From contig CAZXUO010000001.1 of NCBI GenBank assembly GCA_964643955.1, positions 171,828 through 235,827 on the forward strand: 64,000 nucleotides of DNA. The letters are read 5' to 3'. Both the position numbers and the translations under genes were made by a program. Below, in pieces: positions 5,921 to 43,607 of the stretch (within the stretch, counting starts at the first letter, position 1; every line of letters starts with the position of its first letter). Below the pieces are notes generated by a model. It was not told the DNA's origin, made no database searches, and was given only the letters and a program-made list of their open reading frames with translations. The DNA is from an uncultured Candidatus Saccharibacteria bacterium (lineage in GTDB: Bacteria > Patescibacteriota > Minisyncoccia > Phycocordibacterales > UBA918).

Positions 5921-6559
5921 ATGGATAATCACTTCACATCGTCGCGTGATACCAACGTCCCTCCTCCTTCAGAGTCGCAGCCCGAACCAAAAAACAAGAA
6001 AAACGAAAGCTTCTGGGGCGAGCTCGCACGTTTTGCGATCATTGCTGTGATTGTCGTGTTTCCGATTCGCATGTTTATCGCGCAGCCGTTTATCGTCTCG
6101 GGCGCATCGATGGAGCCAACCTTCCAAAACGGCCAATACCTCATCGTTGATCAGATCAGCTACCGCATGGAAGCACCACAGCGCGGTGACGTCGTCATTT
6201 TCCGCTATCCGCGCGATACCTCAAAGTTTTTCATCAAGCGCATCATCGGCCTCCCGGGAGAAACGATAAAAATAGAAGGGGACAGCATGCTCATTTATAA
6301 TCTCGCGCATCCAAACGGATTTGCTATCGACGAAACGTACGTCGAGCACATGGAAAAAGAATCATTTGTGACCCAGACGCTCGGCCCTGACGAATATTTT
6401 GTGCTCGGCGACAATCGCGACGCGAGCTCGGATTCACGCATCTGGGGCATCTTGCCGCGCGAAAATATCGTCGGTCGCGCATTCATCCGGCTCTTCCCTG
6501 TCTCTGAACTTGAGGTGTTCCCGGGACACATCGTGCCCGAAGAAGTTAATCGCTCTTAG
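5921..6559 (+). CDS. lepB: Signal peptidase I (P-type, Ser/Lys dyad)
   Basis: GASMEPTF, KRIIGLPGE and GDNRDASSDSR boxes. Confidence 0.8.
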   Translation: MDNHFTSSRDTNVPPPSESQPEPKNKKNESFWGELARFAIIAVIVVFPIRMFIAQPFIVSGASMEPTFQNGQYLIVDQISYRMEAPQRGDVVIFRYPRDTSKFFIKRIIGLPGETIKIEGDSMLIYNLAHPNGFAIDETYVEHMEKESFVTQTLGPDEYFVLGDNRDASSDSRIWGILPRENIVGRAFIRLFPVSELEVFPGHIVPEEVNRS

Positions 6560-24974: not shown

Positions 24975-25127
24975 ACCACAAAACTTTACGAGTATTGAAT
25001 AATGTGCTATAGTCACTCTCGTAAGAAAGCTCTGGTCACTGAACGACTCCAGCGTTGTTAAGCCTCACAAGCCCTAAACCCTGGAGTGCTTTTTTTTGTA
25101 AAAAAAGAAGAATTAAATAATTACAAT

Positions 25128-26339: not shown

Positions 26340-26347
26340 ACATACGT

Positions 26348-29676: not shown

Positions 29677-29709
29677 AGACTACTTCGTTGCAGTGGTACC
29701 ATTGTCCGG

Positions 29710-31302
29710 ATGAGGAATACTCTTCTCTTTCTTGGACTTATATTCATTGGAACAATTTTTTATGCAGCACATACGTATGCGAATACTCAAAATGATCTAG
29801 GTGCGCTCTACAATGAATGGAAGGAAGAATTTGTCACGCATGAAGGTGCAGGTGGCCATGCGCGCGTACTTCAAAACAAGGATCGTCAAACCACCGTATC
29901 AGAAGGACAGGGATACGGAATGCTTCTTGCAATTTACAACAATGATCCAGAAACATTTGATAAGTTGTGGAAGTATACGAAACAGTACCTCAACGATCGC
30001 GGACTCATGCACTGGCAAATTGACAAGACGGGTGCTGTCATCGGCAGAAACGGTGCAACTGACGGCGATGAGGATATAGCCTTCGCATTACTCGCAGCAT
30101 ACAAACAATGGGGTATGTACGAGGAGGATGCTCGTGCCTATATCGATGCGATTTTTACTCACGAAGTTGAAGCGGAGACATACGTACTTAAGCCGGGTGA
30201 TGTATGGGGCGGCTCTCGCATTACAAATCCGTCATATTGTGCTCCTGCATATTACCGTGAATTCGCAGAATTTACCGGTGAGGAAAACTGGCTTCGTGTA
30301 CTCGACACTTGCTATTCAATTATTAAAAAAGCACGCAATATCAATACAGGTTTGTTACCTGAATGGACAACCATTGACGGCGGCATCGCGTACGATCTTA
30401 CACATAACAAGAATCGCGATAATTTTTCTTACAATGCAATTCGAGTACCTTGGCGTATCTCAGTTGATTGGGTATGGAACCGCGATCCCCGAGCATACTC
30501 AATCAACGACCGCATGACCAACTTTTTCGACAATGAACGAAAATTATATAGCGGGTACACGCTCTCAGGAAAACCAATTGTTATATACTTTGATGCAACG
30601 TTCGCTGCAGGAATTGCTGCAGGATCACTTGCTTCAGATAATACTAAGTTCAGGGAGGAGATGACCGAACGATTGATACAAACAACATCAAATAGCTACT
30701 ATGGTGCGACACTACGCTTGCTGTCACTCATGCTTGTCATGGAGAAATTTCCAAATCTTGCAATCGCGCCTGAAGCACCTCCTGAAAATGAGGAGGAGCA
30801 CAGCACGACTACACCTGAAGTAATCCCATCAGCTCCGCAAGAGCAAGAAATTATTCCCGATTCAGATTCTGTAGAAACAGAACCCATCCCCCAAGAAGAC
30901 CTTGCCGGAGAGGAAGCGAACGTCGGTTCGACAACTCCCGAGATACTCCCTCCTGAAGAACTAGAGGTACCTGAAATTGAGACATCCGTCATCGTTGAAC
31001 CTGAAGAAAATCATACGATAATAATCGACAGTCCTGAAGATAGCGCTACACTTTCTGGAGAGAAGAAGATTAAGGCATATATTGAGAATCTATCACTCGA
31101 CAGCTATACAATGATTTATTCTGTTGATGACAAAATGGAAGACCACATGCATGACGCCGCGGGAATGTTTAAGCAGGCAAAAATCCAATTCGATTCATGG
31201 ACATGGAATGAGAGCGGCCCCTACCGTGTCGACATCACTGCATATGATCTTTCAGGAAATACTCTTGCTACGACTCACATAGAAATCTACGTAAAACACT
31301 AG
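29710..31302 (+). CDS. Second GH8 glycoside hydrolase with an acidic linker and a C-terminal Ig-like domain
   Basis: TVSEGQGYGM and ATDGDEDIAFAL motifs. The C-terminal linker is Glu/Pro-rich. Confidence 0.65.
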   Translation: MRNTLLFLGLIFIGTIFYAAHTYANTQNDLGALYNEWKEEFVTHEGAGGHARVLQNKDRQTTVSEGQGYGMLLAIYNNDPETFDKLWKYTKQYLNDRGLMHWQIDKTGAVIGRNGATDGDEDIAFALLAAYKQWGMYEEDARAYIDAIFTHEVEAETYVLKPGDVWGGSRITNPSYCAPAYYREFAEFTGEENWLRVLDTCYSIIKKARNINTGLLPEWTTIDGGIAYDLTHNKNRDNFSYNAIRVPWRISVDWVWNRDPRAYSINDRMTNFFDNERKLYSGYTLSGKPIVIYFDATFAAGIAAGSLASDNTKFREEMTERLIQTTSNSYYGATLRLLSLMLVMEKFPNLAIAPEAPPENEEEHSTTTPEVIPSAPQEQEIIPDSDSVETEPIPQEDLAGEEANVGSTTPEILPPEELEVPEIETSVIVEPEENHTIIIDSPEDSATLSGEKKIKAYIENLSLDSYTMIYSVDDKMEDHMHDAAGMFKQAKIQFDSWTWNESGPYRVDITAYDLSGNTLATTHIEIYVKH

Positions 31303-31316
31303 CACTTGTTTTTTGT

Positions 31317-32537
31317 TTACCGCAACTCAACATCTTCCTCGATCTCTTCGTCATCACGTGACGGCATAAAAAGCAAATGTGAAATAAAGAACCAAATGAC
31401 AGAAAGAATTGTGGCAATCAACATCGGGAGGAAAAGACAATCGTACCAGAAGAAATATGAGAGTACCGCAACGACTGCATACCAACCCATATGCCAGTAG
31501 TGGTACGCCGACGGATTCCATGGGCGCATATCATGGTATCGCTCGCGGAAATCGAAGAAGAACCAGCCGATCATAAAGAGAAGTGCGAGGAGCCACCAGT
31601 CGCACAAGAGTAATAACTTATTGAGGAGCACCAGCACCACAACCATGAGTGCGGCAAAAATCGAGTTGCGTGAAAATGCACGGCGAGAGCCATACACTTC
31701 GTTTCGCAATCGCAGATCACGGATGAGAACCCAGCCATAAAAGATACCGAGCACGATGAGAAGTATCGGCATCACGCAGGCACAGTCAACCGAGATAATG
31801 TCAGAAACTCCTGCGACGATTCCGTCTGGCAACGTCGTGCTCCCTGTGCCCGTTGCTTCACCGAGCACCTGCGGCTCACCCGCACCTTCTGCTCCTGCTA
31901 CGCTTCCTGAAGGGACAAGTGGAACTGCAAACGGAAATCCGCCGCCAGTACCGAAGTCTTCAGGAGTTCCCGTGTCACCATCCCCGTCACCATCGCCGTC
32001 CCCGCTTGAGCGCGAACCACCGCCCCCTGTACTACCCCCTCCGTCACCATCCCCATCTCCGTCGCCATCACCACCCGAAGTTTCGCCATCGTCACATTCA
32101 AAATTCCCACCTGCAAACCCTATACAAAGATCAAACGAGAGCGATGCATACTGGTATTCATTTCCCGATTCAGGGAAGAATGTCATGCGATAGGTATAGA
32201 CCGTCGATGCGCCGTTTGAAAGTGTACTGAGCCCTACTTTTCCTGCTGTATCGAAATCGACAAATGATCCCGTGAAAAAATCTCCATTGTTGATGATGAC
32301 TCCCATTGCGTCGCCGAGTCCGTCGTCGTCAACCACATTGATAAGTTCGGTATATACACTCTTATCTTCACCGCTATTATTGGTGACCGTCACCGTCTTT
32401 GTGATGGTATCGCCCGGAAGAAAATTAGACTCACCGAAAAGCGGTACGGTCTCGAACTGCACCTCAAGTGGCGCGGCCTGCACACTGCCCGCAAAAAAGA
32501 AGAGTGAGACTGCGCAGATTGTAAGAAAATATTTCAT
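31317..32537 (-). CDS. Secreted and membrane-anchored protein: signal peptide, beta-rich domain, (GD)n linkers, an EPQVLGE motif and a C-terminal multi-TM domain
   Basis: GDGDGDGDGDGGG and GDGDGDGDGDTG low-complexity linkers. At least 5 C-terminal TM helices. Confidence 0.4.
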   Translation of the reverse strand: MKYFLTICAVSLFFFAGSVQAAPLEVQFETVPLFGESNFLPGDTITKTVTVTNNSGEDKSVYTELINVVDDDGLGDAMGVIINNGDFFTGSFVDFDTAGKVGLSTLSNGASTVYTYRMTFFPESGNEYQYASLSFDLCIGFAGGNFECDDGETSGGDGDGDGDGDGGGSTGGGGSRSSGDGDGDGDGDTGTPEDFGTGGGFPFAVPLVPSGSVAGAEGAGEPQVLGEATGTGSTTLPDGIVAGVSDIISVDCACVMPILLIVLGIFYGWVLIRDLRLRNEVYGSRRAFSRNSIFAALMVVVLVLLNKLLLLCDWWLLALLFMIGWFFFDFRERYHDMRPWNPSAYHYWHMGWYAVVAVLSYFFWYDCLFLPMLIATILSVIWFFISHLLFMPSRDDEEIEEDVELR

Positions 32538-32548
32538 AAATAAAATAA

Positions 32549-34633
32549 TTATTCGACCGGTGGCTCTGGCTCCGTCGTAGGTTCAGGCTCTGCGGGCGTC
32601 TCCTCTTCAGCAGGCGCTTCTTCGACTTCTTCTACAACATCTTCAACGACCATAAGATCATCTTCTGGCTGGACCTCGACAATTGGTTCTTCCTGCTCTT
32701 GCTCAACGGGTTCTACCACTGGCTCCGGCGGAAGAATATCTTCTTCACGCACGTCTCCAAGATCAGTAGAGCCGCCGGTCGATTGCTCATCGGTAGGTGG
32801 TGTCGCTTCAAGCACCGGCGCTGTCGACGATGCAGTTGAAGATGCCGTCGGCGTGACCGGTGCAATCTCCGGCGTAATCACTTCCTCTTCTGCAATGAGA
32901 AGCGCTTCAATTTCAGCATCAGTCATTTCAGGAAGTTCCTCAAGTCCTTCTGATATAGGAGCGACCTCAACACCTTCCATAGTGAAGCGAAGAATCTCGA
33001 TATCGTCTGATCCCGGATTGGTACCTGGATTTGGTGTCGCATTGAAAATCCAATCAGAAGCCGCGTCAGTGTCCCAGCCTTTCACCACGCGCGCGATCGA
33101 CTTGCCATCGAGTCCCGTGATGCCGACCGAAGGATTAAGCGCGACGGTATCGGTACCATAGCTTACTTGATCGACGACGACATCAGCGCCATCGCGGAGA
33201 ATCACGCGATCACCACCATCAGCGAGCCCATTGCCGAGCGATACGCCGAGCGCGATTTTAACCGCTGAAGCTGGGATGTCAGTCCAGTGGAGCGCAAATG
33301 TACTCGAGGCATTCGTGACGACCGCAAATCCATATGCAGGGATCGGTGTCGTAAGAAGCGGAATCATGTCGCAGCTCGTATTGTCACAAATATCCCATCC
33401 CGAAATATCAATCGGTGCAGCCGTCGGATTGTAAAGCTCTACCCACTCATTGTTTGTATCAGAGCCATGACCCGAATCTACATCATAGAAAACCTCGTTC
33501 ACGACCATGTGCGTGGTTGGTGCGACCGGCGCATCGATCGCCACCTCGAGGACTGGTCGTACATCGCTCTGACTTTGGTGCTCTGAGCTGCGGAACTTTC
33601 CCGAGCGGCTTCCGCTCTCAGGAAGCGCGTCGACATCCGCAAGCTTCCATCCATAGTTTGAGAAACTTCCATTTACAAAACCTGCGACATCACTCGTGAC
33701 ATCCCAGGACATCCACTTCGCATTCCCATCACCCGTACTCTCAGTGTCGGTCGGCGCAACCACCGCAGGCTTGCTATTCCACGTCACACTTCCCTCGCTC
33801 CACACTGCTGTCGCACGCGAGACTGCGTAATTGGTATTTGGCGTTGGTGCGGTGTAAAGATACGCCTTTAATTGTGCATCAGTGATGATCGAGCCGGGAG
33901 GAAGTGCGAAGTTGAATCCAACGAGCGCCTCAGAGTCCTTCGCACCAGACTGTCGACGAAGCTCAAGCTGCTGACTCGTGCCATTGTTGGTATTTGGCTG
34001 CTGCTCGTTTACATCAGTATCCATAATCGCTGCGATGTCAATCGTCGAAGTGCTTGTGTCGGACATGTTTTCCCACTGCGCTGTGGTGACGGCAAACGAT
34101 TCAGTCTCGACATCGTGATATGCCTTTCCTGAAGCAAAGCCAAACTGCCAACCATCAAACGTAATATCAAAATCGCAGGTCAGATTTGCGTATGAGCTGT
34201 CGACCGGCGGAAGCGAGGTGATGAAATCCCATGAGTTACCATCACCGGGGAAACTTGAGGTGCTGTGTGAGAAGCTTGCGAGCGGCCCCGTGTACACCGT
34301 GCTCGTTGCACGTTTTGCTTCGAGATTGAGTACGCCACAGAGTGGGCTCGTCGTCGCTGAAGTGAAAACGCGATATTCAAATGGCAATGAGTCGGTCGTG
34401 GTCGAAAGCGAGACAGGAAATGCCGGTGCACTGTTTTCAGGTGTGAGTCCGATGAATTCAGTCGTTGTGGTTGCGAGCATAAAATCAAGCTCTGCAGCAT
34501 CAAAAGAATTCTCTTCAGAAATTTCCGTATCGCTATAGTACGCCTGTGTGACACCCACTTGTGCGCAGCCGACCGTCGCAATGAGCGCGAATGCGAGTAC
34601 TTTTATTCCAAATTTATTTCTGAAGTTATGCAT
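32549..34633 (-). CDS. Large secreted protein (694 aa) with a SipW-cognate (TasA/camelysin-type) N-terminal signal
   Basis: The N-terminus ...GVTQAYYSDTEISEENSFDAAELDF matches the A[FY][FY]SDTE..(x)N.F.AG.LDL signature of SipW substrates. The C-terminal tail is Glu/Pro/Thr-rich. Confidence 0.55.
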   Translation of the reverse strand: MHNFRNKFGIKVLAFALIATVGCAQVGVTQAYYSDTEISEENSFDAAELDFMLATTTTEFIGLTPENSAPAFPVSLSTTTDSLPFEYRVFTSATTSPLCGVLNLEAKRATSTVYTGPLASFSHSTSSFPGDGNSWDFITSLPPVDSSYANLTCDFDITFDGWQFGFASGKAYHDVETESFAVTTAQWENMSDTSTSTIDIAAIMDTDVNEQQPNTNNGTSQQLELRRQSGAKDSEALVGFNFALPPGSIITDAQLKAYLYTAPTPNTNYAVSRATAVWSEGSVTWNSKPAVVAPTDTESTGDGNAKWMSWDVTSDVAGFVNGSFSNYGWKLADVDALPESGSRSGKFRSSEHQSQSDVRPVLEVAIDAPVAPTTHMVVNEVFYDVDSGHGSDTNNEWVELYNPTAAPIDISGWDICDNTSCDMIPLLTTPIPAYGFAVVTNASSTFALHWTDIPASAVKIALGVSLGNGLADGGDRVILRDGADVVVDQVSYGTDTVALNPSVGITGLDGKSIARVVKGWDTDAASDWIFNATPNPGTNPGSDDIEILRFTMEGVEVAPISEGLEELPEMTDAEIEALLIAEEEVITPEIAPVTPTASSTASSTAPVLEATPPTDEQSTGGSTDLGDVREEDILPPEPVVEPVEQEQEEPIVEVQPEDDLMVVEDVVEEVEEAPAEEETPAEPEPTTEPEPPVE

Positions 34634-35186
34634 GCGTATCAGTCTTTTCTGGTTCCTCTTTTGCTTCTTTTTTTGTTCGCAACTTTCTCAATTCATTCCA
34701 GAGTGCGACTCCCTCATCAAAAAGGACAAATCCTGCGGGAATGCCGATGAGTAATACGAAACCGAGCGGCTTCTTAGCAAAATCGAGGATGAATCCCATG
34801 TACGGAATCGAGAAGAAGACTTCTCCAAGTACCTGAGTACGCGGTATCGGCCGCGGATCAGGCGCGTTGTTGGCATCGCCTTTCGTGAGATACGAGATGC
34901 CACGACCGATCTCATCTACCTCGACGATGCGGTGCGTCGTCGGCACCTGATCGCCACGTTCAAAGTAGAAGGTGATGATATCACCCACTTGATAATCACC
35001 CGTTGGTCGCATCACAATGAGCGAGCCCGTCTTGATCTCAGGCTCCATCGAGCCGGACTGCACAATCTTTACTTCGAAGTTGCCTGGTACGGGCACGAGC
35101 GGCATGAGCAGCAGAAGACCAAGGAGAACCACTCCCACGATGAGTCCGTAATAGAGAATTGCGAAGAACTTTCCGATCATAAGCAT
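34626..35186 (-). CDS. sipW: Signal peptidase I, ER/archaeal type (SipW)
   Basis: SGSMEP box, a His-containing TTHRIV box (no Lys general base) and a TKGDANNAPD box. This differs from the P-type lepB at 5921. Confidence 0.75.
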   Translation of the reverse strand: MLMIGKFFAILYYGLIVGVVLLGLLLLMPLVPVPGNFEVKIVQSGSMEPEIKTGSLIVMRPTGDYQVGDIITFYFERGDQVPTTHRIVEVDEIGRGISYLTKGDANNAPDPRPIPRTQVLGEVFFSIPYMGFILDFAKKPLGFVLLIGIPAGFVLFDEGVALWNELRKLRTKKEAKEEPEKTDTHA

Positions 35187-35270
35187 ATCGAGGCTTAAAG
35201 ACTTAAGGCCTCATCCCTCCCCGCGATACTTCGCAGGGAGGGTGAGCCATCAAGACTTTAAAGAATTTCT

Positions 35271-37145
35271 TTAAAAGCCGAGAACGTCTCCGTTCAACAT
35301 GACGTCATCTACTTCAACAACCTGAGCTTTGTTGTACGTACCCATTCCTACTGATATACCGACAACTTTTGCTCCTGGATAAGCCGCAGCAAGCTGCTGA
35401 AGTGTGAAGTTGGTTGCGTATGCGCCACCTCCACCACTCACTCCGGCAGCTGTGGTAACTCCACTTGCCCACCACTTACCTTTTGTTTGATCGGCGCTCC
35501 ATGTCTGCTCAACACCAGTCATGATTGATGGTGGGTTGAGGTCATTGTGAGCGAAGATGTTGTAGTACGGTTCAAAGGTGATGTCCTTTGTAGTCGTACC
35601 CACACCATCTCCGTCGAGGTCAACAATGAGGCGAAGGCTCGCGTTTCCGTTTATAGGATCAAACGCTGAAACTTGCTTTGAGTCATACCTCACCATCGTG
35701 ACATCCTCTACATCGATATCTACACCGTAGTTGGTATAGCGAACGCGTGAGTTTACATCATCTGCAGTAACGAGCGTGATGAATCCATCCTCAACAACCA
35801 CATCTCCACCAGCTGATGATGTCTCAATCCACTCGTCCTCTTCTTCACCACCACCATTGTATTCTGCGATCACATCGGCGCATGAGAAGTCTGCGTTGTT
35901 GCGCTGCTGTACTGCGTATGCAGTGATGTCCGCAATGAGTGAGTCTGACTGTGATGCGTTGTCTACCGTAGAGCCATCACATTCGATCTCTCCATCATTG
36001 TTTGTCTGTGTACCTGCGCACCATGCGAGACCGAGGTATGCAGTTGTTGATGCAGTAAGACTGATCTCTTCTGGATTCCATGCATCTGCAAATGATGCGC
36101 CAGGACCAGCAATCACCGTCTCATCTCCTGCATCATATTCTCCATCTCCATTATCAACCCACGCGAAGAATTCAAGGACGCTGCCGAGCTCTCCAGTTGT
36201 AAGTCCATCTTCATCATCCTGTGATTCTGGCTCCGTCTGTGTATTGTCATCTTCCTCAATGTTATATGGGAAGACACACGCAAACGCATCATTGTCGAAC
36301 ACATGGAGTGAAATCACGTTTGTACCCCAGTCACCCGGCTTAATGTCGTTGAAGTTGAAGAACTTGTCTCCATCCGCAAGATCTTTTTCAGCCCAAAGGC
36401 GGCACATATTTTGGAAGTCTGTATCTGCAGCACATTCCTGTTCTGGACGTTCAATATTCAATTTGAACATCAAGCCTGCAGGGTTTGCTTCTGGTGTGCC
36501 GCCCTGTACTGCTTTGTTGCGAACGGTGATTTCAAGCACGTTCTCGCCAGTCTGTACCTCGGCCTGAAGTGCAGCTTGGAATGGCGCAGTATTTACAAGG
36601 TCGCCATAATTAAATTCAGTACCAAGATTGTTCACAATTTCTGTACCGTTGAGGACAATCTTGTAACCATTGTCAGCCGCAAGCGCAAGCGTAAGCGAGA
36701 TACCCGAAACGCCGCCATTCCACTGAAACTTGTTTTGGAATGTGTACTCTGCGTCTGTTGTGGTATCTGCCTGAAGCACTGGATTGGTTACCCAAATCCA
36801 CTGAGCAGGTGCAGCAGAAGCCTCTGGCTCCCATGCAGGGTGAACAAAACTCAACTCGACTGCATCCGTAGGAATTGGTCCTGCGTATGCACCATTGTCT
36901 GCAACAACGTCAGTACTTGCAGCAGACGAAAATACCGTCACGCTACATGTCTCACAGTCTGCGCCATTATACGTTTGCATTGCATGGTCTACCTTAAGAT
37001 CAATCGATCCAGCGGTAAACACGTTTCCTGCTGATGTCTCTGTATCACTGAAGAATGCGCCCGTTCCTGAGATCACAATCGCTGCGATTGCAGTGATGAG
37101 TCCGAGGCTCAAGAGCACTCGCTTTGTGTTAATAACTCCTGTCAT
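35271..37145 (-). CDS. Large secreted protein (624 aa) with a SipW-cognate signal (TasA-like)
   Basis: N-terminus ISGTGAFFSDTETSAGNVFTAGSIDLKVD is a near-canonical match to the SipW-cognate class. Confidence 0.6.
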   Translation of the reverse strand: MTGVINTKRVLLSLGLITAIAAIVISGTGAFFSDTETSAGNVFTAGSIDLKVDHAMQTYNGADCETCSVTVFSSAASTDVVADNGAYAGPIPTDAVELSFVHPAWEPEASAAPAQWIWVTNPVLQADTTTDAEYTFQNKFQWNGGVSGISLTLALAADNGYKIVLNGTEIVNNLGTEFNYGDLVNTAPFQAALQAEVQTGENVLEITVRNKAVQGGTPEANPAGLMFKLNIERPEQECAADTDFQNMCRLWAEKDLADGDKFFNFNDIKPGDWGTNVISLHVFDNDAFACVFPYNIEEDDNTQTEPESQDDEDGLTTGELGSVLEFFAWVDNGDGEYDAGDETVIAGPGASFADAWNPEEISLTASTTAYLGLAWCAGTQTNNDGEIECDGSTVDNASQSDSLIADITAYAVQQRNNADFSCADVIAEYNGGGEEEDEWIETSSAGGDVVVEDGFITLVTADDVNSRVRYTNYGVDIDVEDVTMVRYDSKQVSAFDPINGNASLRLIVDLDGDGVGTTTKDITFEPYYNIFAHNDLNPPSIMTGVEQTWSADQTKGKWWASGVTTAAGVSGGGGAYATNFTLQQLAAAYPGAKVVGISVGMGTYNKAQVVEVDDVMLNGDVLGF

Positions 37146-37214
37146 AACAGTTTGTAAAATTAATCTTTAAATAAATTTGATAAACCCACGCGCAGCTCTG
37201 GTGCTGAGCTGGTC

Positions 37215-37262
37215 TGGGTATAGAAAAAACGCCCCGCGCACGAATTACGTGCGAGAGGCGTT
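37215..37262. terminator. Long imperfect hairpin terminator (aacgccccgcgcacg aatta cgtgcgagaggcgtt) with A- and T-runs, embedded in a longer imperfect palindrome
   Basis: Located downstream of the sortase gene and upstream of the 624-aa gene. Confidence 0.55.
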
Positions 37263-37389
37263 TTTCCATACATCCAAACCAGACCAGCAGTACTTCAGAG
37301 TCATTATCATAGCTGTGGTAATCGCATACTAGCGCACCGCAACCGAATGTACATATTGACGTGTGGACTAGTTTGTATCGTGCCGCTCT

Positions 37390-38022
37390 TTATTTATCCT
37401 TGAGCGCCGCGTAAACAACCAGATTATGGCTGTATCGCTGCACGCCACGATCAAACGTACCCGTGCAGGTCACGAGGCGCAAACCCGCATGGTCGATGTC
37501 TCCATAGACTAATTGTGTCGGAAAATTTTCCTGCGCATATCGCTCCAGCGCAGTGACTTCAAATACTGCAATACTGCCGTCCTCTCGCACAATCTCAATC
37601 TCATCGCCGAGCGAGAGTTGTCCGAGTGAATAAAAGACTGCAGGACCCGCAACTGAGTCCACGTGCCCGAGCACAACCGCAGGACCAAGCTCACCGGGCG
37701 TCGGACCATGTTTGTACCATCCGACTTCCTCATAGCCTTTTGGCACTTCCACTTCACCATTTTCTGAGAGGCCGAGCGGGTCGGTAAATGATGCATCGAG
37801 ATCAATCGCAGGAATACGCAATTGAACTGGGAGAGACTCCTCGAGGTACGCGGCACTCGAAGATGCATATGGATCACCCATCTGTTCAGGTGAATACGCT
37901 GGCGCAGGGAGAAAAAGGTACATCACCAATGCGCCTATTACGAGGCCACATACGGCATACGCCGCCACGGTACCGTGGCGGCGTATGCATGATCCGAGTC
38001 GTTGTCTTGGATCAATACTCAT
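37390..38022 (-). CDS. Sortase (class E/F-like transpeptidase)
   Basis: An N-terminal TM anchor, a VVLGHVD His motif and an LVTCTG catalytic Cys motif (TLxTC). Confidence 0.7.
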   Translation of the reverse strand: MSIDPRQRLGSCIRRHGTVAAYAVCGLVIGALVMYLFLPAPAYSPEQMGDPYASSSAAYLEESLPVQLRIPAIDLDASFTDPLGLSENGEVEVPKGYEEVGWYKHGPTPGELGPAVVLGHVDSVAGPAVFYSLGQLSLGDEIEIVREDGSIAVFEVTALERYAQENFPTQLVYGDIDHAGLRLVTCTGTFDRGVQRYSHNLVVYAALKDK

Positions 38023-38027
38023 AAGTC

Positions 38028-39815
38028 CTAGTTGGCGAATCGTCGGAGTGCGAAGCCTGCGCCAAGAATTGCGAGGAGTGCGAAGACTGATACAAGTGAT
38101 GTATCACCTGAAGTGCCTCCTGCACCCGCATTTGGTGCGCCAATCGGCATAATTTCCGTCTGCACGCCGAGAACCTGCGGTACTGGCTCGTCATCGTCAG
38201 AGCTTGAAGACGAGCGACGTGAACCTCCACCCCCACCTCCTCCGCCGCCACCTGAGTCATTGAGACCAAAGTGTGCAACGAGGTCAATATTTCCGCTCAT
38301 AACCACCGTACATGGCGTCGTATTGCCGATGCAGGTACCTGAGCCCGTTGTCCAGCTATTATCGAAGTTTGAGCCTTCGTTTGGAGTCACCACAAGCGTA
38401 ACTTCGGTTCCTTCTGGGTATGTTTCAGAGCAGTCATTCTCTTCATTTTCGCCCGTAAGACAGAAGATTGTCGTCGTCGCCACTTCGGTCTCATTACCCT
38501 CGATTTTTCCGTGACCATCGCCCGTTGTCGTAATCGTGAGTGTATAGCGACCATCACCGTCTCCATCACCGTCTCCATCTCCGTCGCCACCACCGTTTGT
38601 TGGCACCTCAGTACAGTCTACTTCGGTATTGCCGGTAAGTGTCATCTTGTAGAGGAGACCTGCTGGATTTGATTCAGTTGTCCCCCCTTCAAGCGCCCAG
38701 TTTTTCACTTCGATTGAGAGCGTATTTTCGCCCATAATTATTTCGCCACCAAATCCAGTGTAATTGGTCGATGTTCCGAAGTTATCTTCAACGCCACTCG
38801 ATGCAATCTCTGTACCATTAAGCTTCACCGAGTATGAGTTGTCAGCTGCTATATCGAGCACAGAGGCTGTCACGGGACCGTTCCAATCGAAGGTTTTCGT
38901 AAATGTCTGAATCGTCTCGTTGACCGGATCGACAACGGGATCATCACCCCAGATCCATGATGCACCATCGATTACTGCGTCCCATGCATCGTGGATGAAT
39001 GAAACAAGTACTGCCGCAGCACCATCTTCAGTATTTGTCGTGTCACTCACGATCGTGACCGAACACATCTGTGGTTCTGGATCGGTGTCATCAGGCTGTG
39101 CAATGAGACAAAGTTCGACATGATCAAGCAATGTACCCGATGCATTTGATACACCCTGATCCTCAAACGCGATCTCAGTTGACAAGCCGTCAGCAACAAA
39201 CGTCTCCTCATAGAATGACCAATCTGTATCAGAATTACCGGTACCGTCTGCTGTTATTGAGTTTTTCTCAATACCATCTATAAATACACCGAGAATGTTT
39301 TCACTCTCATCCGTTCCGGGTAGTGGAGAAAAAAAGAATTTCAATGCATACGTACCACCCAAAATCGTAGGGACGTCTTGCATAATTCGAACCGATGGCT
39401 GCTCATTCGGACCGTCATCAATACCGGGACCACTCCAATCTGAATCAAGTTCAGTGTAGTAATCACCATGATATGCGCTCCACCAACCTGTATTCCCATT
39501 GTCGATCTCAATATTTGCGGTCTCCGGTGCGCCATCAACATCATGCACCCATCCTGCCTCCCACTCGACACCGTTAGTACCTGATGGTATTACCTCCCAC
39601 TCCTCAATCAAAATATCATCGTCATCAAATGTCTGATCTTCAAAAGAACCGTTTTTGATAAGATTCTCTCCATACACGAGACACTGTGTGCCTTCGGTCT
39701 CGTGCTGCACGCCGGCGTAAACCGGATTAGAGAAAGTACCAGAAAAGACCATCGCAGATACCAGTAAAAATACTCCTACCTTCCGGACTCCAGAGGAAAT
39801 CATAACCGTATTCAT
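38028..39815 (-). CDS. Cell-surface protein (595 aa) carrying a (GD)n linker, a poly-Gly/Ser tract, a PQVLG motif, and a C-terminal hydrophobic anchor followed by a basic RRFAN tail
   Basis: The C-terminal architecture (hydrophobic segment followed by RR) resembles a sortase sorting signal, but no canonical LPXTG is present. Confidence 0.5.
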   Translation of the reverse strand: MNTVMISSGVRKVGVFLLVSAMVFSGTFSNPVYAGVQHETEGTQCLVYGENLIKNGSFEDQTFDDDDILIEEWEVIPSGTNGVEWEAGWVHDVDGAPETANIEIDNGNTGWWSAYHGDYYTELDSDWSGPGIDDGPNEQPSVRIMQDVPTILGGTYALKFFFSPLPGTDESENILGVFIDGIEKNSITADGTGNSDTDWSFYEETFVADGLSTEIAFEDQGVSNASGTLLDHVELCLIAQPDDTDPEPQMCSVTIVSDTTNTEDGAAAVLVSFIHDAWDAVIDGASWIWGDDPVVDPVNETIQTFTKTFDWNGPVTASVLDIAADNSYSVKLNGTEIASSGVEDNFGTSTNYTGFGGEIIMGENTLSIEVKNWALEGGTTESNPAGLLYKMTLTGNTEVDCTEVPTNGGGDGDGDGDGDGDGRYTLTITTTGDGHGKIEGNETEVATTTIFCLTGENEENDCSETYPEGTEVTLVVTPNEGSNFDNSWTTGSGTCIGNTTPCTVVMSGNIDLVAHFGLNDSGGGGGGGGGGSRRSSSSSDDDEPVPQVLGVQTEIMPIGAPNAGAGGTSGDTSLVSVFALLAILGAGFALRRFAN

Positions 39816-39891
39816 ACAGAAATATTATAAGTGGTTAACCCAAACGTGACGCCGTTCTAGCATATTTTGGGTTAACCCGCAACACCAAGGA

Positions 39892-41292
39892 TCAGATGTC
39901 GAAAAGACGCTCGACCAAACCGCGATTTGAAAGCGACACGAGGTATACAGTATCAGGATCAACAAAAATACCCGCTAGACCCATGTATTGCCAGCGATAC
40001 GAATCTTGGATGGTACGACGCATGGTAATTGAACTACGGGTAAGGTCGTAGACAATCAGGCCAGTTGGCGCCGTCGCTTGTACGACCGTTGAGCCACGTA
40101 CAACTGAGTCTGATTCCCGCACAATAGAGGGAAGATCAGTACGCGCTACGATGGTGCTTCCCGAATTATTTATTACATACCCGAAACCACCACCTGCTGC
40201 GTATGATCCCTGCACAAAAAATGCATCGATACCAGGGACGTACGCGACGTTATAAGTGTAATACTTCACTCCCGAAGTAATCTTTGTTGGAGCTTTTGTA
40301 AGCATACCGGTTGCAGGATCAAGTGCTGCAACATAGAGATCAACTGCAGTCGACCCAGGGACGAATCGTTGCCAGACAAGTAGGGCAGTTTGAGGTGATC
40401 CTGCAACAACAGGCCACCAATCACGTTCGTTACCAACAGAAACATTCACGGTGCGCTCAAGAGAACCATCGTTCTTTATGATTGCCGCATAGACGTCGTC
40501 TCCTGAACCGAGCCCATCGACACCTCCACCATCTACCCATCCTTCAGAGAAAAATACGACAAATTTATTACCGACTGCAGAGACGTGCCCCGAATGACCT
40601 CCCTCCATTACTGTTTGCGGGTATGATTTACGTACTCCAAGTTCCGAATCAAAAACCGCGTATCGTTGAGAAACTTCATACGAAGTATCCCACCCATCTT
40701 CGGTTGTAACGAGAATATTCCCATTTTGTGCAATGGCTGCGCTTGCTGGCTCCTGTGCTTCAGGCTTTGAGATGAGTGTTTGGGGAATAATTACTGGAGC
40801 ACGAGGATCAATAATGGACGCGTATATATCGTGAGTCCAATTCCAATCCTGTTTCGGATCTGCTCCTTTCGGAGGATTCCCCGAACTCGACCAAATGAGA
40901 TAGTGAGTTCCATCTGATCGAGGAAGAAAAGAAATTCCATGCTGAAACTCTCGAAGATCATCAGATGAAGGAGCGTCTTTTGCATTGTTGTAATAAGAAC
41001 TATTGTTACTGAGCTTTACCGAGATATGTGAGCCTGCAGCATCGGGCATGACATTAGGCGCAGCTTCTTCGGTATCTGATGTTTCCGTCATAATAACTTC
41101 CGTAGGATTCTCTACATTTTCCTCGACCTCAGTTTCAATCTCGCTCTCTGGAAGAATCGGTACAACCACAGACAAATCTTCTGCCGTATCTACATACTCC
41201 TCTCCCGGTGCATTCAATCTCTCATAATATGCAAAGGCACCCACCAAAACAGTGGATGCCAATACAATGCCGAGTGCTGCTTTTCGTACCAT
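39892..41292 (-). CDS. Hypothetical secreted or membrane-anchored protein (466 aa)
   Basis: An N-terminal TM segment with a Gly/Ser/Thr-rich body. No family recognised. Confidence 0.4.
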   Translation of the reverse strand: MVRKAALGIVLASTVLVGAFAYYERLNAPGEEYVDTAEDLSVVVPILPESEIETEVEENVENPTEVIMTETSDTEEAAPNVMPDAAGSHISVKLSNNSSYYNNAKDAPSSDDLREFQHGISFLPRSDGTHYLIWSSSGNPPKGADPKQDWNWTHDIYASIIDPRAPVIIPQTLISKPEAQEPASAAIAQNGNILVTTEDGWDTSYEVSQRYAVFDSELGVRKSYPQTVMEGGHSGHVSAVGNKFVVFFSEGWVDGGGVDGLGSGDDVYAAIIKNDGSLERTVNVSVGNERDWWPVVAGSPQTALLVWQRFVPGSTAVDLYVAALDPATGMLTKAPTKITSGVKYYTYNVAYVPGIDAFFVQGSYAAGGGFGYVINNSGSTIVARTDLPSIVRESDSVVRGSTVVQATAPTGLIVYDLTRSSITMRRTIQDSYRWQYMGLAGIFVDPDTVYLVSLSNRGLVERLFDI

Positions 41293-43286: not shown

Positions 43287-43295
43287 TTGGTAATG

Positions 43296-43538
43296 TTATT
43301 GATTTATCTGTAAACCCAGGTCGTGTATGCTCACCTGACGCAACGCACCCTTATATTTCCTGAGATTTATAAAAAATCTGATGAGCATGAGTACTGAGAG
43401 CCCAAACGAGATTATTGTAAAGATTAGAAATATCCGTGCCAAAATGATATTGCCGGAAGAGTTTAGCAAAAAAGCCGTCGCGACCGCGAGCGGCATCGAT
43501 GACAAAGTTGAGATCACTGTCCCTCCGTGCAGATTCAT
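43296..43538 (-). CDS. Small two-TM membrane protein, positioned like IcaD/PgaD
   Basis: 80 aa with two hydrophobic helices, lying between the processive GT2 and the CE4 deacetylase. Confidence 0.35.
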   Translation of the reverse strand: MNLHGGTVISTLSSMPLAVATAFLLNSSGNIILARIFLIFTIISFGLSVLMLIRFFINLRKYKGALRQVSIHDLGLQINQ

Positions 43539-43607
43539 AGTCGTACCGAATTACTACACGACCTGTGTATCATGCTTTCTTGGCTTTGGCAAGTTTTAGA
43601 AAGTATT

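What the first reader, a model, noticed from the sequence alone, without database searches (positions are those of the whole stretch)
32549..37145. An ER-type signal peptidase SipW is flanked on both sides by giant proteins bearing the SipW-cognate signal motif
34626-35186 has the SGSMEP / THRIV / TKGDAN boxes of archaeal and ER-type SPase I, with His in place of the Lys general base. A conventional P-type lepB also exists, at 5921. Both neighbours start with the TasA-class motif after a hydrophobic segment: AFFSDTETSAGNVFTAGSIDL in one and AYYSDTEISEENSFDAAELDF in the other. The arrangement is substrate, dedicated peptidase, substrate. The substrates are 624 and 694 aa long and have acidic, Pro-rich tails.
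Basis: partly seen in the sequence, partly recalled or inferred. Interest (0 to 1): 0.65.

Follow-up and report, generated by a model that had tools for sequence, protein, structure and literature searches.

The report
TasA-like lectin fibre operon, CPR bacteria
A four-gene operon in an ultra-small (Patescibacteria/CPR) bacterium encodes a dedicated archaeal/ER-type signal peptidase plus three TasA-fold proteins, which most likely form a sugar-binding surface fibre tied to the cell membrane. The same cassette occurs in hundreds of CPR species, so it is a candidate attachment organelle, though it is a variant of a known system.

Summary
34626-35186(-) encodes an ER/archaeal-type signal peptidase I: TIGR02228 109.8 bits, Ser46/His85/Asp104/Asp110, best solved relative human SEC11A. 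A P-type LepB sits at 5921-6559. Only the two ORFs flanking sipW carry the TasA-class N-terminal motif in the whole 64 kb.

Corrections:
- Only the 694-aa protein has an acidic, Pro-rich tail.
- The proteins are large, not giant.
- The 694-aa N-terminus misses the TIGR04088 cut-off by about 1 bit.
- The unit has a fourth gene, 31317-32537(-).

Relatives occur in 506 species genomes. Among the 80 loci fetched, nearly all labelled Patescibacteria, the order [short paralogue]-A-SipW-B-C recurs.
- A (624 aa) is a TasA-like jelly roll with an inserted CBM67-like lectin domain.
- B (694 aa) is a TasA-like N-domain plus CBM96, LTD and an acidic tail.
- C (406 aa) has an ordinary AxA signal and a TasA-like head whose best PDB match is the TasA fibre. 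It lacks the donor strand. Its anchor is a membrane helix bundle here and LPXTG in three relatives.

Best reading: SipW exposes an N-terminal donor strand. A polymerises, B is a nucleator or tip adhesin, and C is the anchor. Polymerisation itself is inferred, not shown.

This is a new variant of a known kind (B. subtilis tapA-sipW-tasA; haloarchaeal Tafi pili).

The parts
35271..37145 (-). A (624 aa), predicted major fibre subunit. Layout: Sec signal with predicted SipW cleavage after Ala30 (nt 37056-37145); donor-strand motif FFSDTETSAGNVFTAGSIDLKVD (nt 36987-37055); inserted CBM67-like lectin domain, residues ~62-246 (nt 36408-36962); TasA-like jelly-roll body, residues ~247-430 (nt 35856-36407); clade-specific C-terminal beta domain, residues 431-624 (nt 35274-35855).
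   Evidence: - TIGR04088 21.7 bits (cut-off 19) and PF12389 23.1 bits (cut-off 22.5, N-terminal 44 positions only).
- At least 459 homologues, several named 'TasA family' or 'SipW-dependent-type signal peptide' by NCBI.
- AF2 model, mean pLDDT 83.6, with residues 26-45 below 50.
- Short paralogues align end to end with A except for a ~184-residue insertion (E 1.4e-84), and align with TasA 2-236 at 85% probability.
- The insert matches PDB lectins 6T0Q/6KBJ (E 6e-6) and rhamnosidase 3W5M residues 133-230.
35194..35262 (-). Very stable RNA hairpin in the 84-nt gap between gene A and sipW. Probably an intra-operon attenuator or mRNA stabiliser that favours the major subunit.
   Evidence: - MFE -43.1 kcal/mol, z -7.1, 0 of 200 shuffles as stable.
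- The feature recurs in relatives: A->SipW gaps have median z -5.5 and 94% below -3. Other same-strand gaps in the same loci have median -1.6 and 28% below -3.
34626..35186 (-). SipW-like ER/archaeal-type signal peptidase I (186 aa), with an N-terminal and a C-terminal membrane segment and a Ser46/His85 dyad. Its stop overlaps the start of gene B by 8 nt.
   Evidence: - TIGR02228 109.8 bits (cut-off 51.85); Bacillus SipW equivalog 122.3 bits (cut-off 190, not reached); TIGR02227 23.6 bits.
- Best solved relative is SEC11A 7P2P (E 1.2e-11) with the catalytic boxes aligned.
- Ser46, His85, Asp104 and Asp110 are each kept in 81-82 of 83 cassette-linked homologues, the rest being alignment gaps.
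- Membrane segments at 15-33 and 144-162.
32549..34633 (-). B (694 aa), predicted minor subunit (nucleator or tip adhesin). Layout: signal with predicted cleavage after Ala31; donor-strand motif YYSDTEISEENSFDAAELDF; TasA-like N-domain, residues ~32-190 (nt 34064-34540); CBM96/DNRLRE domain, 199-364 (nt 33542-34039); lamin-tail domain, 371-493 (nt 33155-33523); acidic Pro-rich tail, ~550-694 (nt 32552-32986).
   Evidence: - NF033679 87.3 bits, PF24517 73.3 bits, PF00932 52.6 bits.
- TIGR04088 17.8-18.4 bits against a cut-off of 19.
- B N-domain profile vs TasA 2-236: 88.6% probability, E 2.7e-6. Vs the short paralogues: 97.8%.
- Tail composition.
31317..32537 (-). C (406 aa), predicted fibre anchor. 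Layout: ordinary AxA signal (VQA|AP, residues 1-21); TasA-like head without a donor strand, residues 22-145 (nt 32103-32474); Gly/Asp-rich disordered linker, 146-238 (nt 31824-32102); helical membrane bundle, 239-390 (nt 31368-31823).
   Evidence: - AF2 model: head pLDDT above 90, linker below 50, six helices between 238 and 390.
- Best PDB match of the model is the TasA fibre 8AUR_A (E 9e-6), about 100-fold better than the next hit.
- C head vs B N-domain: 95.9-97% probability.
- The alignment to TasA has a 12-residue gap exactly over the TasA donor strand.
- The N-motif HMM hits 0 of 57 C-family members.
- The anchor module varies among relatives: 1-5 TM segments in 45 of 52, canonical LPXTG in 3.
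37223..37267 (-). Intrinsic terminator after the sortase gene. It separates the sortase operon from the A-SipW-B-C operon.
   Evidence: Hairpin of -35.5 kcal/mol, z -7.6, followed by UUUUUU.
37390..39815 (-). Lineage-specific neighbours, not part of the conserved cassette: a class F sortase (37390-38022) and its likely substrate D (595 aa, 38028-39815). D carries the same lectin domain as A and a C-terminal hydrophobic segment with an RRFAN tail.
   Evidence: - NF033748 class F sortase 180.7 bits (cut-off 166).
- A residues 65-231 vs D residues 249-393: 40% identity, E 1e-25.
- A sortase is adjacent to the cassette in only 2 of the 80 distinct related loci.
5921..6559 (+). Housekeeping P-type signal peptidase I (LepB), the likely processor of protein C and other secreted proteins.
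   Evidence: TIGR02227 149.1 bits (cut-off 47); PF10502 158.8 bits.

Best explanation
The operon A-SipW-B-C (37145..31317, minus strand) is the Patescibacteria version of a TasA-superfamily, donor-strand fibre system.

Shown:
- SipW is an ER/archaeal-type Ser/His signal peptidase.
- A and B, and no other ORF in the window, carry the TasA-class motif directly after the hydrophobic core of their signal peptides.
- A, B and C all contain TasA-related jelly-roll domains.
- C lacks the motif and carries a membrane anchor.
- The gene order is conserved in dozens of related CPR genomes.

Inferred by homology with B. subtilis TasA (fibre structure 8AUR):
- SipW cuts after Ala30 of A and Ala31 of B (T-x-A|[FY][FY]-S-D). 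[quoted passage not shown] A signal with aromatic residues at P1'/P2' is a poor LepB substrate, which would explain the need for a dedicated peptidase.
- The free strand of one subunit completes the beta-sandwich of the next, so A polymerises into a fibre. Each A subunit displays a CBM67-like lectin domain.
- B has a strand plus an acceptor domain, carbohydrate-binding and lamin-tail modules and a long acidic tail. It would be the low-copy nucleator or tip adhesin, a TapA/TafC-like role.
- C can accept a strand but cannot donate one, so it must sit at one end of the chain. It would tether the fibre to the membrane through a long flexible linker.
- The conserved hairpin after gene A would give an excess of the major subunit.

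The fibre probably binds glycans, either of the cell's own exopolysaccharide (synthase loci flank the operon) or of a host cell.
For: Peptidase type.

Motif and gene order:
- The motif occurs only in the two flanking genes.
- By family it is present in A 79/81, paralogues 83/99, B 56/64 and C 0/57.
- Cassette conservation: SipW downstream of A in 79/80 loci; C-family gene present in 49/62; short paralogue directly upstream of A in 50/64.

TasA relationship:
- Short paralogue vs TasA full length, 85% probability, with the hallmark motifs aligned (AF.D, KPGD, Q..s..f.F.a.Q).
- A equals the paralogue plus an insertion (E 1.4e-84).
- B N-domain vs TasA, 88.6%.
- The C head's best PDB match is the TasA fibre 8AUR (E 9e-6), and C has a gap over the donor strand.

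TasA reference and mechanism:
- The TasA sequence and its mature N-terminus were verified against 8AUR.
- Residues 28-38 are the donor strand and TapA supplies the first strand (PMC9674648).
- The N-terminal motif of A is disordered in the monomer model (pLDDT below 50 for residues 26-45), as expected for a strand that needs a partner.

Anchor role of C:
- The head is constant while the anchor varies: 1-5 TM segments in 45/52 members and canonical LPXTG in 3.
- One of the LPXTG members (L017) has a sortase gene directly downstream.

Abundance and expression:
- The A orthologue of Ca. Microsyncoccus archaeolyticus (PMX.50_00003, next to sipW PMX.50_00004) is among the five most highly expressed signal-peptide genes of unknown function (PMC10936435; locus L023).
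- Conserved hairpin after gene A.

Precedent: haloarchaeal Tafi loci are reported or proposed to combine a major pilin, a minor pilin, a tip protein, a dedicated SPase I and a membrane anchor with a jelly-roll domain (PMC12337348).
Against: - No multimer model and no experiment. Polymerisation, subunit order, polarity and cleavage sites are all inferred.
- The jelly-roll body of A does not match TasA directly. Pfam PF12389 covers only the N-terminal 44 positions even after the insertion is removed. The A core profile vs TasA gives 1.4% probability. The full-length A model did not return TasA among the top 50 Foldseek PDB hits. The link runs through the short paralogue family.
- B misses the curated TIGR04088 cut-off, and only 11 of 56 B-family N-termini reach about that level.
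- The pairwise hhalign probabilities to TasA (72-89%) are moderate.
- The window lacks the short paralogue that 78% of relatives have.
- A subunit of 63 kDa with a lectin insertion and an extra C-terminal domain is much bulkier than any TasA-type subunit known to polymerise.
Confidence: 0.6

Rival explanations
1. A and B are SipW-processed but non-polymerising surface or secreted lectins/adhesins. The conserved N-terminal motif would serve only as the peptidase recognition element, and C would be an unrelated membrane protein that shares a beta-sandwich.
For: - A and B carry carbohydrate-binding modules.
- No direct evidence of filaments exists.
- A's body matches TasA only indirectly.
Against: - The motif extends about 23 residues past the cleavage site and is nearly invariant. 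That is far more than a peptidase needs, and it aligns residue for residue with the TasA donor strand.
- C is homologous to B's N-domain yet lacks exactly that strand.
- The co-inherited set of a strandless head, strand-bearing paralogues and a variable anchor is hard to explain without strand exchange.
Confidence: 0.17
2. A forms a two-dimensional lattice, S-layer-like coat or hydrogel network (as reported for archaeal AbpX) rather than discrete anchored fibres. B and C would be accessory components.
For: - A is very acidic (15% D+E, computed pI at the routine's lower limit of 4.05), like the calcium-dependent AbpX family (bioRxiv 10.64898/2026.01.04.697558).
- Its orthologue is very highly expressed.
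- Exopolysaccharide synthase loci flank the operon.
Against: This reading still relies on donor-strand polymerisation, so it is a variant of the main explanation. The membrane-anchored or LPXTG-anchored strandless head argues for cell-attached filaments.
Confidence: 0.12
3. C is an accessory subunit of the signal peptidase, analogous to SPC22/23 in eukaryotes or to DUF5305/TafG in archaeal loci, and not a fibre anchor.
For: - C is a membrane protein with an extracellular beta-sandwich, encoded two genes downstream of sipW.
- Accessory SPase subunits have been proposed in archaeal TasA-superfamily loci.
Against: - No DUF5305 hit and no other Pfam hit for C.
- The head is homologous to B's TasA-like domain and matches the TasA fibre best.
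- A disordered linker of about 90 residues separates the head from the membrane.
- Three orthologues are LPXTG cell-wall proteins, which cannot be stable partners of a membrane peptidase.
Confidence: 0.06
4. The locus encodes a sortase-assembled Gram-positive-type pilus, or A is a camelysin-type metalloprotease.
For: - A class F sortase lies directly upstream.
- Pfam names PF12389 'camelysin metallo-endopeptidase'.
Against: - A and B have no C-terminal sorting signal or C-terminal membrane segment.
- An intrinsic terminator separates the sortase operon from gene A.
- A sortase is adjacent to the cassette in only 2 of the 80 distinct related loci.
- None of A, B or C contains an HExxH motif.
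Confidence: 0.03

Closest known systems
Bacillus subtilis tapA-sipW-tasA biofilm fibre operon
   Same: - A dedicated ER-type signal peptidase sits between two substrates that share the AF.D...F.sGtLDL N-terminal motif.
- The substrates have a TasA jelly roll.
- The mature N-terminus would act as a donor strand.
- There is one major and one minor, strand-bearing component.
   Different: - The gene order is reversed: the major subunit comes first.
- The major subunit is 2.4 times larger, with a CBM67-like lectin inserted after the first strand and an extra C-terminal domain.
- The minor subunit carries CBM96, a lamin-tail domain and an acidic tail.
- A fourth gene encodes a strandless TasA-fold head on a membrane anchor. 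B. subtilis has no such gene.
- The peptidase does not reach the Bacillus SipW equivalog cut-off (122 bits against 190).
Haloarchaeal Tat-fimbriae (Tafi: TafA/E pilins, TafC tip, TafD signal peptidase, TafF membrane anchor; PMC12337348, PMC11821415)
   Same: The same parts list is reported or proposed: major and minor strand-donating pilins, a multidomain tip protein, a dedicated TIGR02228-type SPase I, and a membrane protein that combines a transmembrane helix with a jelly-roll domain as the proposed anchor.
   Different: - The system here is bacterial (CPR).
- Its signals are Sec-type, not Tat.
- No DUF5305 accessory protein was detected by Pfam.
- Anchor topology differs: here the head is N-terminal and the helices C-terminal, whereas TafF-like proteins are described as a membrane helix followed by the jelly roll.
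- No sequence-level relationship to the Taf proteins was tested here.
Archaeal bundling pili and AbpX (TasA superfamily; PMC9245690; bioRxiv 10.64898/2026.01.04.697558)
   Same: - Chaperone-free donor-strand polymers of a TasA-related jelly roll.
- Often found next to an SPase I gene.
[quoted passage not shown]
- Bacterial AbpX loci include LPXTG or SLH anchors predicted to join the fibre by strand exchange.
   Different: - Those subunits are small single-domain proteins.
- The AbpX-linked peptidase has ten membrane helices.
- No lectin insertion is described.
- Patescibacteria are not mentioned in the AbpX preprint (0 occurrences). They appear in the bundling-pilus paper only as a phylum that holds PF12389 hits.
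Chaperone-usher pili of Gram-negative bacteria (analogy only)
   Same: Donor-strand exchange, lectin-bearing adhesin subunits, a terminal subunit with only one of the two interaction elements, and an excess of the major subunit. Pilin domains appear among the weaker Foldseek hits of the C head.
   Different: No chaperone, no usher and no outer membrane here, and no evolutionary relationship is implied.

Membership tests
ER/archaeal-type signal peptidase I (SEC11/SipW class, TIGR02228) | Score above the curated cut-off of the archaeal/ER-type model, and higher than on the P-type model | tested here: met
   TIGR02228 109.8 bits (cut-off 51.85); TIGR02227 23.6 bits (cut-off 47). The only solved relatives at E<=1 are SEC11A/C.
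ER/archaeal-type signal peptidase I (SEC11/SipW class, TIGR02228) | Ser/His catalytic pair (His in place of the P-type Lys) plus conserved Asp residues | tested here: met
   Ser46, His85, Asp104 and Asp110 align with the SGSMEP, HR and GD..N..D boxes of SEC11A. Each is kept in 81-82 of 83 cassette-linked homologues.
Bacillus SipW (equivalog NF046067) | Score at or above the equivalog cut-off of 190 bits | tested here: not met
   122.3 bits. It is the same class of enzyme but not an orthologue by NCBI's criterion.
ER/archaeal-type signal peptidase I (SEC11/SipW class, TIGR02228) | Actual cleavage of the neighbouring proteins | not testable with these tools
   Cleavage after Ala30 (A) and Ala31 (B) is predicted only by alignment to the verified mature N-terminus of TasA.
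SipW-cognate signal peptide (TIGR04088) | A (624 aa) scores at or above the 19-bit cut-off | tested here: met
   21.7 bits for the full length, 27.9 bits for the N-terminus alone.
SipW-cognate signal peptide (TIGR04088) | B (694 aa) scores at or above the 19-bit cut-off | tested here: not met
   17.8-18.4 bits, E 0.002-0.003. Of 56 B-family N-termini, 11 match at about the cut-off and 29 at E<=0.1. A family-specific motif HMM gives 19.2 bits, E 1.6e-5. B is a divergent, sub-threshold member.
SipW-cognate signal peptide (TIGR04088) | Encoded next to a SipW-type peptidase | tested here: met
   Both genes flank sipW here. The adjacency holds in 79 of 80 related loci.
TasA/camelysin family (Pfam PF12389) and TasA superfamily | Pfam gathering score reached | tested here: inconclusive
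   A scores 23.1 bits against 22.5, but the match covers only positions 6-49 of 196. B scores 12.8 bits. C has no hit.
TasA/camelysin family (Pfam PF12389) and TasA superfamily | Jelly-roll body homologous to TasA | tested here: met
   - hhalign to TasA over its full length: short paralogue 85%, B N-domain 88.6%, C head 71.6%.
- A aligns end to end with the short paralogue (E 1.4e-84).
- The C head model's best PDB match is the TasA fibre 8AUR_A, E 9e-6.
- The direct A-core vs TasA comparison is not significant.
TasA/camelysin family (Pfam PF12389) and TasA superfamily | Assembly into fibres by N-terminal donor-strand exchange | not testable with these tools
   Supported only by alignment of the motif to TasA residues 28-47, by disorder of this segment in the monomer model and by the strandless C family.
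Sortase-dependent (LPXTG) pilus | Subunits carry a C-terminal sorting signal | tested here: not met
   A and B have no C-terminal hydrophobic segment. Only the neighbour D (595 aa) has one. Three C-family orthologues in other genomes have LPXTG.
Tafi-like archaeal pilus locus | Tat signal on the pilins and a DUF5305 accessory protein | tested here: not met
   The N-termini read show no twin-arginine motif. No DUF5305 hit in Pfam scans of the seven genes between 31317 and 41292. The resemblance is in architecture only.

The most novel reading that the evidence does not exclude
The cassette builds a so far undescribed surface organelle of Paceibacteria-type CPR bacteria. It would be a chaperone-free donor-strand fibre in which every subunit displays a lectin domain. 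The fibre would be rooted in the cytoplasmic membrane (or, in some species, the cell wall) by a strandless TasA-fold protein on a long flexible stalk and tipped by a multidomain adhesin. The cells would use it to hold on to host cells or matrix glycans. If so, it would be a second attachment system of CPR episymbionts besides type IV pili. It could be tested directly in the Ca. Microsyncoccus/methanogen enrichment cultures, where the major subunit is already known to be among the most highly expressed secreted proteins.
Probability: 0.4. Interest if true: 0.75.

Novelty: new variant of a known kind. Interest (0 to 1): 0.55.

Why it matters
How the ultra-small, host-dependent Patescibacteria attach to their partners is largely open, and type IV pili are the main known player.

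This cassette has relatives in 506 species-level genomes. Among the 80 loci fetched, nearly all are labelled Patescibacteria. In the one transcriptome available, its major protein is among the five most highly expressed signal-peptide genes of unknown function of an archaeon-parasitising CPR bacterium. That study described it only as a 'galactose-binding domain fold' (PMC10936435).

Recognising it as a TasA-type, SipW-dependent fibre with built-in lectins and a dedicated anchor gives concrete, testable predictions: cleavage sites, strand-groove pairs, subunit order and glycan ligands. It also extends the TasA superfamily's 'pilin, tip, peptidase, anchor' architecture from archaea and Firmicutes to the CPR. 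For the TasA field it offers a natural example of a large domain inserted into a donor-strand subunit, and of an acceptor-only terminal subunit.

Tried and rejected
- Exact look-up of the SipW protein in the contig index found nothing. The CPR assignment therefore rests on the relatives.
- Foldseek of the full-length A model against the PDB was dominated by galactose-binding-like domains of GH2 enzymes, rhamnosidase and Cry toxins, with TM-scores of 0.16 or less. TasA was not among the 50 hits shown. This is uninformative for the jelly-roll body because the model has several domains.
- Pfam on an insertion-deleted chimera of A still matched only the N-terminal 44 positions of PF12389. The direct profile of the A core against TasA, C or B was not significant. 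The TasA link for A therefore rests on the short-paralogue family.
- The consensus promoter/terminator scan of 31000-40100 found no more sites than shuffled sequence and missed both strong hairpins, which were found by reading and folding.
- Literature searches for TasA or SipW together with Patescibacteria or CPR returned only a one-line distribution remark in PMC9245690.
- Rejected readings: a sortase pilus (no sorting signals on A or B, and a terminator in between); a metalloprotease (no HExxH); C as a peptidase accessory subunit (see rivals).
- An earlier guess of cleavage at G29|A30 was replaced by A30|F31 after alignment to the verified TasA mature end.

Full report
**1. What is in the sequence**

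Four ORFs lie head to tail on the minus strand:
- A: 37145..35271, 624 aa.
- SipW: 35186..34626, 186 aa.
- B: 34633..32549, 694 aa. Its start overlaps the sipW stop by 8 nt.
- C: 32537..31317, 406 aa, 11 nt after B.

A class F sortase (38022..37390) and a 595-aa protein D (39815..38028) lie upstream. A strong intrinsic terminator at 37223-37267 separates them from A (-35.5 kcal/mol, z -7.6, U-tract). Downstream, the next gene is convergent.

The window is bacterial: it has RNase P class A and tRNAs. Judged by its relatives, it comes from a Patescibacteria (CPR) genome of the Paceibacteria/Parcubacteria type.

**2. Check of the observation**

The peptidase is confirmed.
- It carries SGSMEP, THRIV and TKGDANNAPD.
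- It scores 109.8 bits on TIGR02228 (cut-off 51.85) but only 23.6 on the P-type model.
- Its only solved relatives are human SEC11A/C, with the catalytic boxes aligned.
- Ser46, His85, Asp104 and Asp110 are each kept in 81-82 of 83 homologues that sit in the same cassette elsewhere.
- It has an N-terminal and a C-terminal membrane segment.
- It does not reach the Bacillus SipW equivalog cut-off (122 bits against 190). 'SipW-like' is therefore the accurate name.

A P-type LepB is at 5921-6559 (149 bits).

Both quoted N-terminal strings are present.
- TIGR04088 is passed by A (21.7 and 27.9 bits; cut-off 19) and narrowly missed by B (17.8-18.4).
- A motif HMM built from relatives finds only these two ORFs in the whole window (E 1.6e-18 and 1.6e-5; the next best is 0.5).

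Two details are wrong. Only B has an acidic, Pro-rich tail (31% D+E and 16% P, against 10% and 3% in A). Neither protein is giant.

**3. A conserved cassette**

A has at least 459 homologues. Most are about 430 aa long, come from Parcubacteria-type MAGs, and some are named 'TasA family protein' or 'SipW-dependent-type signal peptide-containing protein' by NCBI.

A scan of one genome per species found relatives in 506 genomes. Among the 80 loci fetched, nearly all are labelled Patescibacteria; a few carry other taxon labels from automated assemblies.

ORF calling and phmmer on the distinct fetched loci gave:
- SipW downstream of A on the same strand in 79 of 80 loci.
- With at least 4.5 kb of sequence after SipW: a motif-bearing gene directly after it in at least 42 of 62 loci, and a C-family gene in 49 of 62.
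- A short (about 250-300 aa) A paralogue directly upstream of A in 50 of 64 loci.

The window and its closest relative (L001, 93% identity) lack that paralogue and have the sortase pair instead. A sortase is adjacent to the cassette in only 2 of the 80 distinct related loci.

The N-terminal motif is present in 79/81 A, 83/99 paralogue and 56/64 B proteins, and in 0/57 C proteins.

**4. What the three non-peptidase proteins are**

I verified my copy of the B. subtilis TasA sequence against PDB 8AUR. It is identical, and the mature chain starts at Ala28, AFNDIK.

*Short paralogue and A.* Profile-profile alignment shows that the short paralogue family aligns with TasA residues 2-236 (85% probability). 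The hallmark motifs are in register:
- GATGAFFSDTETS.GNTFTAGAIDL with GGTWAAFNDIK-SKDATFASGTLDL.
- FFNFSDVKPGD with SVNLSNLKPGD.
- NESQTDSVTADISFRVEQSRNN with NKYQGNSIKLQFSFEATQWNG.

A aligns with the paralogue from end to end (E 1.4e-84), except for an insertion of about 184 residues after the first strand.

*The insertion.* It matches PDB 'Lectin' entries 6T0Q, 6T1D and 6KBJ and residues 133-230 of the S. avermitilis rhamnosidase 3W5M. From memory, those lectin entries are the Pleurotus ostreatus lectin and the rhamnosidase region holds its CBM67 module. The 'CBM67-like' lectin class is described in PMC11186620. The same domain occurs in the sortase substrate D (40% identity, E 1e-25).

*The A model.* The AF2 model is good (mean pLDDT 83.6), but residues 26-45, the cleavage site and motif, are disordered. 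In the window's clade, a further beta domain (residues 431-624) without any family match follows.

*B.* Its first 190 residues align with TasA 2-236 (88.6%) and with the short paralogues (97.8%). CBM96/DNRLRE, a lamin-tail domain and the acidic tail follow.

*C.*
- It has an ordinary signal (VQA|AP).
- Its 125-residue head is modelled with pLDDT above 90. A Gly/Asp-rich disordered linker of about 90 residues and six helices follow.
- The best PDB match of the model is the TasA fibre 8AUR_A (E 9e-6, about 100-fold better than the next hit). Chaperone-usher pilins appear among the weaker hits.
- The C head is homologous to the B N-domain (95.9-97%).
- Its alignment to TasA has a 12-residue gap exactly where TasA has its donor strand. 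C's mature N-terminus falls at the strand that corresponds to TLDLS in TasA and SIDLK in A.

*The anchor end of C.* Across 52 complete C-family members, 45 have one to five membrane segments and three end in a canonical LPXTG sorting signal. One of those three (L017) has a sortase gene directly downstream. The head is constant.

**5. Mechanism**

In TasA fibres, residues 28-38 of each subunit complete the sandwich of the next. A subunit releases its strand only when its own groove is filled, and TapA is thought to supply the first strand (PMC9674648).

Transferred to this operon, the following steps are inferred.
- SipW cuts after Ala30 of A and Ala31 of B (T-x-A|, as T-W-A| in TasA). [quoted passage not shown] TasA (AFND) has the same pattern, and it is reported for AbpX homologues.
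- E. coli LepB is reported to cleave inefficiently when P2' is aromatic, as it is in TasA (abstract of PMC10269814). That would explain why a second peptidase is kept.
- A polymerises by strand exchange and carries one lectin per subunit.
- B, which has a strand, an acceptor domain and adhesin-type modules of variable make-up (265-1353 aa among relatives), is the nucleator or tip.
- C can only accept a strand, so it must be a terminal subunit. It ties the chain to the membrane, and its linker is long enough to cross the envelope.

The order of events and the polarity of growth cannot be decided here.

Two further observations fit a highly expressed major subunit.
- The 84-nt gap after gene A holds a hairpin of -43.1 kcal/mol (z -7.1). 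Such a hairpin recurs in relatives: A->SipW gaps have median z -5.5 with 94% below -3, against median -1.6 and 28% in control gaps of the same loci.
- In Ca. Microsyncoccus archaeolyticus PMX.50, the third gene of contig 1 is the A orthologue and the fourth is annotated SEC11/sipW (locus L023; supplement). [quoted passage not shown]

**6. Context**

The operon lies between two exopolysaccharide loci.
- 25086-31302: a cellulose-synthase-like GT2, two GH8 glycosidases and a PMT-family/LysM protein.
- 41340-44846: a PgaC-like GT2 and a polysaccharide deacetylase.

The relatives examined (L001, L003/L004, L006/L007) lack these neighbours, so they are not part of the cassette. They do make a matrix-related role plausible here.

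**7. Comparison and novelty**

The closest characterised system is tapA-sipW-tasA. The closest in architecture are the haloarchaeal Tafi loci, reported or proposed to hold pilins, a tip protein, a dedicated SPase I and a membrane anchor with a jelly roll (PMC12337348). Also close are bacterial AbpX loci with LPXTG or SLH anchors (bioRxiv 10.64898/2026.01.04.697558).

That Patescibacteria hold PF12389 hits has been noted in one sentence (PMC9245690). I found no description of the cassette, of the lectin insertion or of the strandless anchor in the searchable literature.

I therefore rate it a new variant of a known kind. The system-level picture in CPR bacteria, and the anchor, are what is new.

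**8. Limits**

No multimer prediction or experiment was possible. The TasA relationship of A's body rests on a transitive argument through the short paralogue. B is sub-threshold on the curated motif model. The pairwise profile probabilities are moderate. Gene calls in the related loci are my own ORF calls, so the cassette frequencies are lower bounds.

Noticed in passing
window 35194-35262 (-), and the A->SipW gaps of L001, L006, L009, L012-L087: A very stable hairpin with no clear U-tract follows the major-subunit gene. It is conserved as a structure across very divergent genomes: 94% of such gaps have z below -3, against 28% of control gaps. It may set the ratio of major subunit to peptidase, minor subunit and anchor.
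   Followed up: partly
window 37390-39815 (-); L001 6614-9757: A class F sortase sits with a 595-aa protein that has choice-of-anchor C/DUF642, InlB-B-repeat-like and CBM67-like domains. That protein shares the lectin domain of A (40% identity). Its C-terminus, ...PQVLGVQTEIMPIGAPNAGAGG-hydrophobic-RRFAN, has no LPXTG, and the whole tail is conserved in L001. The sortase recognition motif is unclear.
   Followed up: partly
window 31824-32102 (linker of C) and 38028-38200 (C-terminus of D); C-family members in L003, L006, L015, L018, L019, L027, L032, L035, L037, L076: A short motif, G(E/Q)(V/I)LG(A/E)x(T/S), recurs upstream of the membrane segment in about 20 of 52 C-family proteins and in the sortase substrate D. 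Its frequency is 2.1 per 1000 aa against a background of 0.6. Its function is unknown; it could be a processing or sorting element.
   Followed up: partly
window 25086-31302 (+) and 41340-44846 (-): Two exopolysaccharide loci flank the fibre operon. One holds a BcsA-like cellulose synthase with two GH8 enzymes and a PMT_2/LysM protein. The other holds a PgaC-like GT2 with a 648-aa polysaccharide deacetylase. The GH8 at 29710-31302 has a long acidic, Pro-rich extension followed by a beta domain.
   Followed up: no
L023 (BTXY01000001.1:1-14612, Ca. Microsyncoccus archaeolyticus PMX.50): The cassette is present in an enrichment-cultured parasite of methanogens. Its A orthologue, PMX.50_00003, was published as a top-five expressed secreted protein with a 'galactose-binding domain fold' but was not linked to TasA or SipW. 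The supplement table lists a sipW (K13280) gene only for PMX.50, not for the other two CPR MAGs in that study.
   Followed up: partly
L017 17207-19009; L027 5144-6595; L046 15150-17267: In three species the C-family protein ends in a canonical LPXTG sorting signal (LPNTG, LPGTG, LPKTG) instead of membrane helices. In L017 a sortase gene follows directly.
   Followed up: partly
L003/L004 17243-18229; L006/L007 13144-13662: A CAP/SCP-domain protein is encoded directly after the C gene in at least two distant relatives. It is absent from the window.
   Followed up: no
P0048, P0094 (A-family members of 666 aa): Some A-family proteins carry a different C-terminal extension annotated PF11999, in place of the window's 190-residue domain. 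The C-terminus of the subunit therefore seems to be a swappable module.
   Followed up: no
window 58623-63953 (-) and 39892-41292 (-): The first is a 1776-aa secreted protein with at least eight CARDB repeats. The second is a 466-aa secreted protein with no family match that lies between the deacetylase and the sortase substrate.
   Followed up: no
A-family alignment A1/A2 (window A residues 64, 67, 238, 248, 290, 376, 389, 422): Eight invariant or nearly invariant cysteines suggest four disulfide bonds in an extracellular protein of CPR bacteria. Glutaredoxin genes lie a few kb away in L001 and L006.
   Followed up: no
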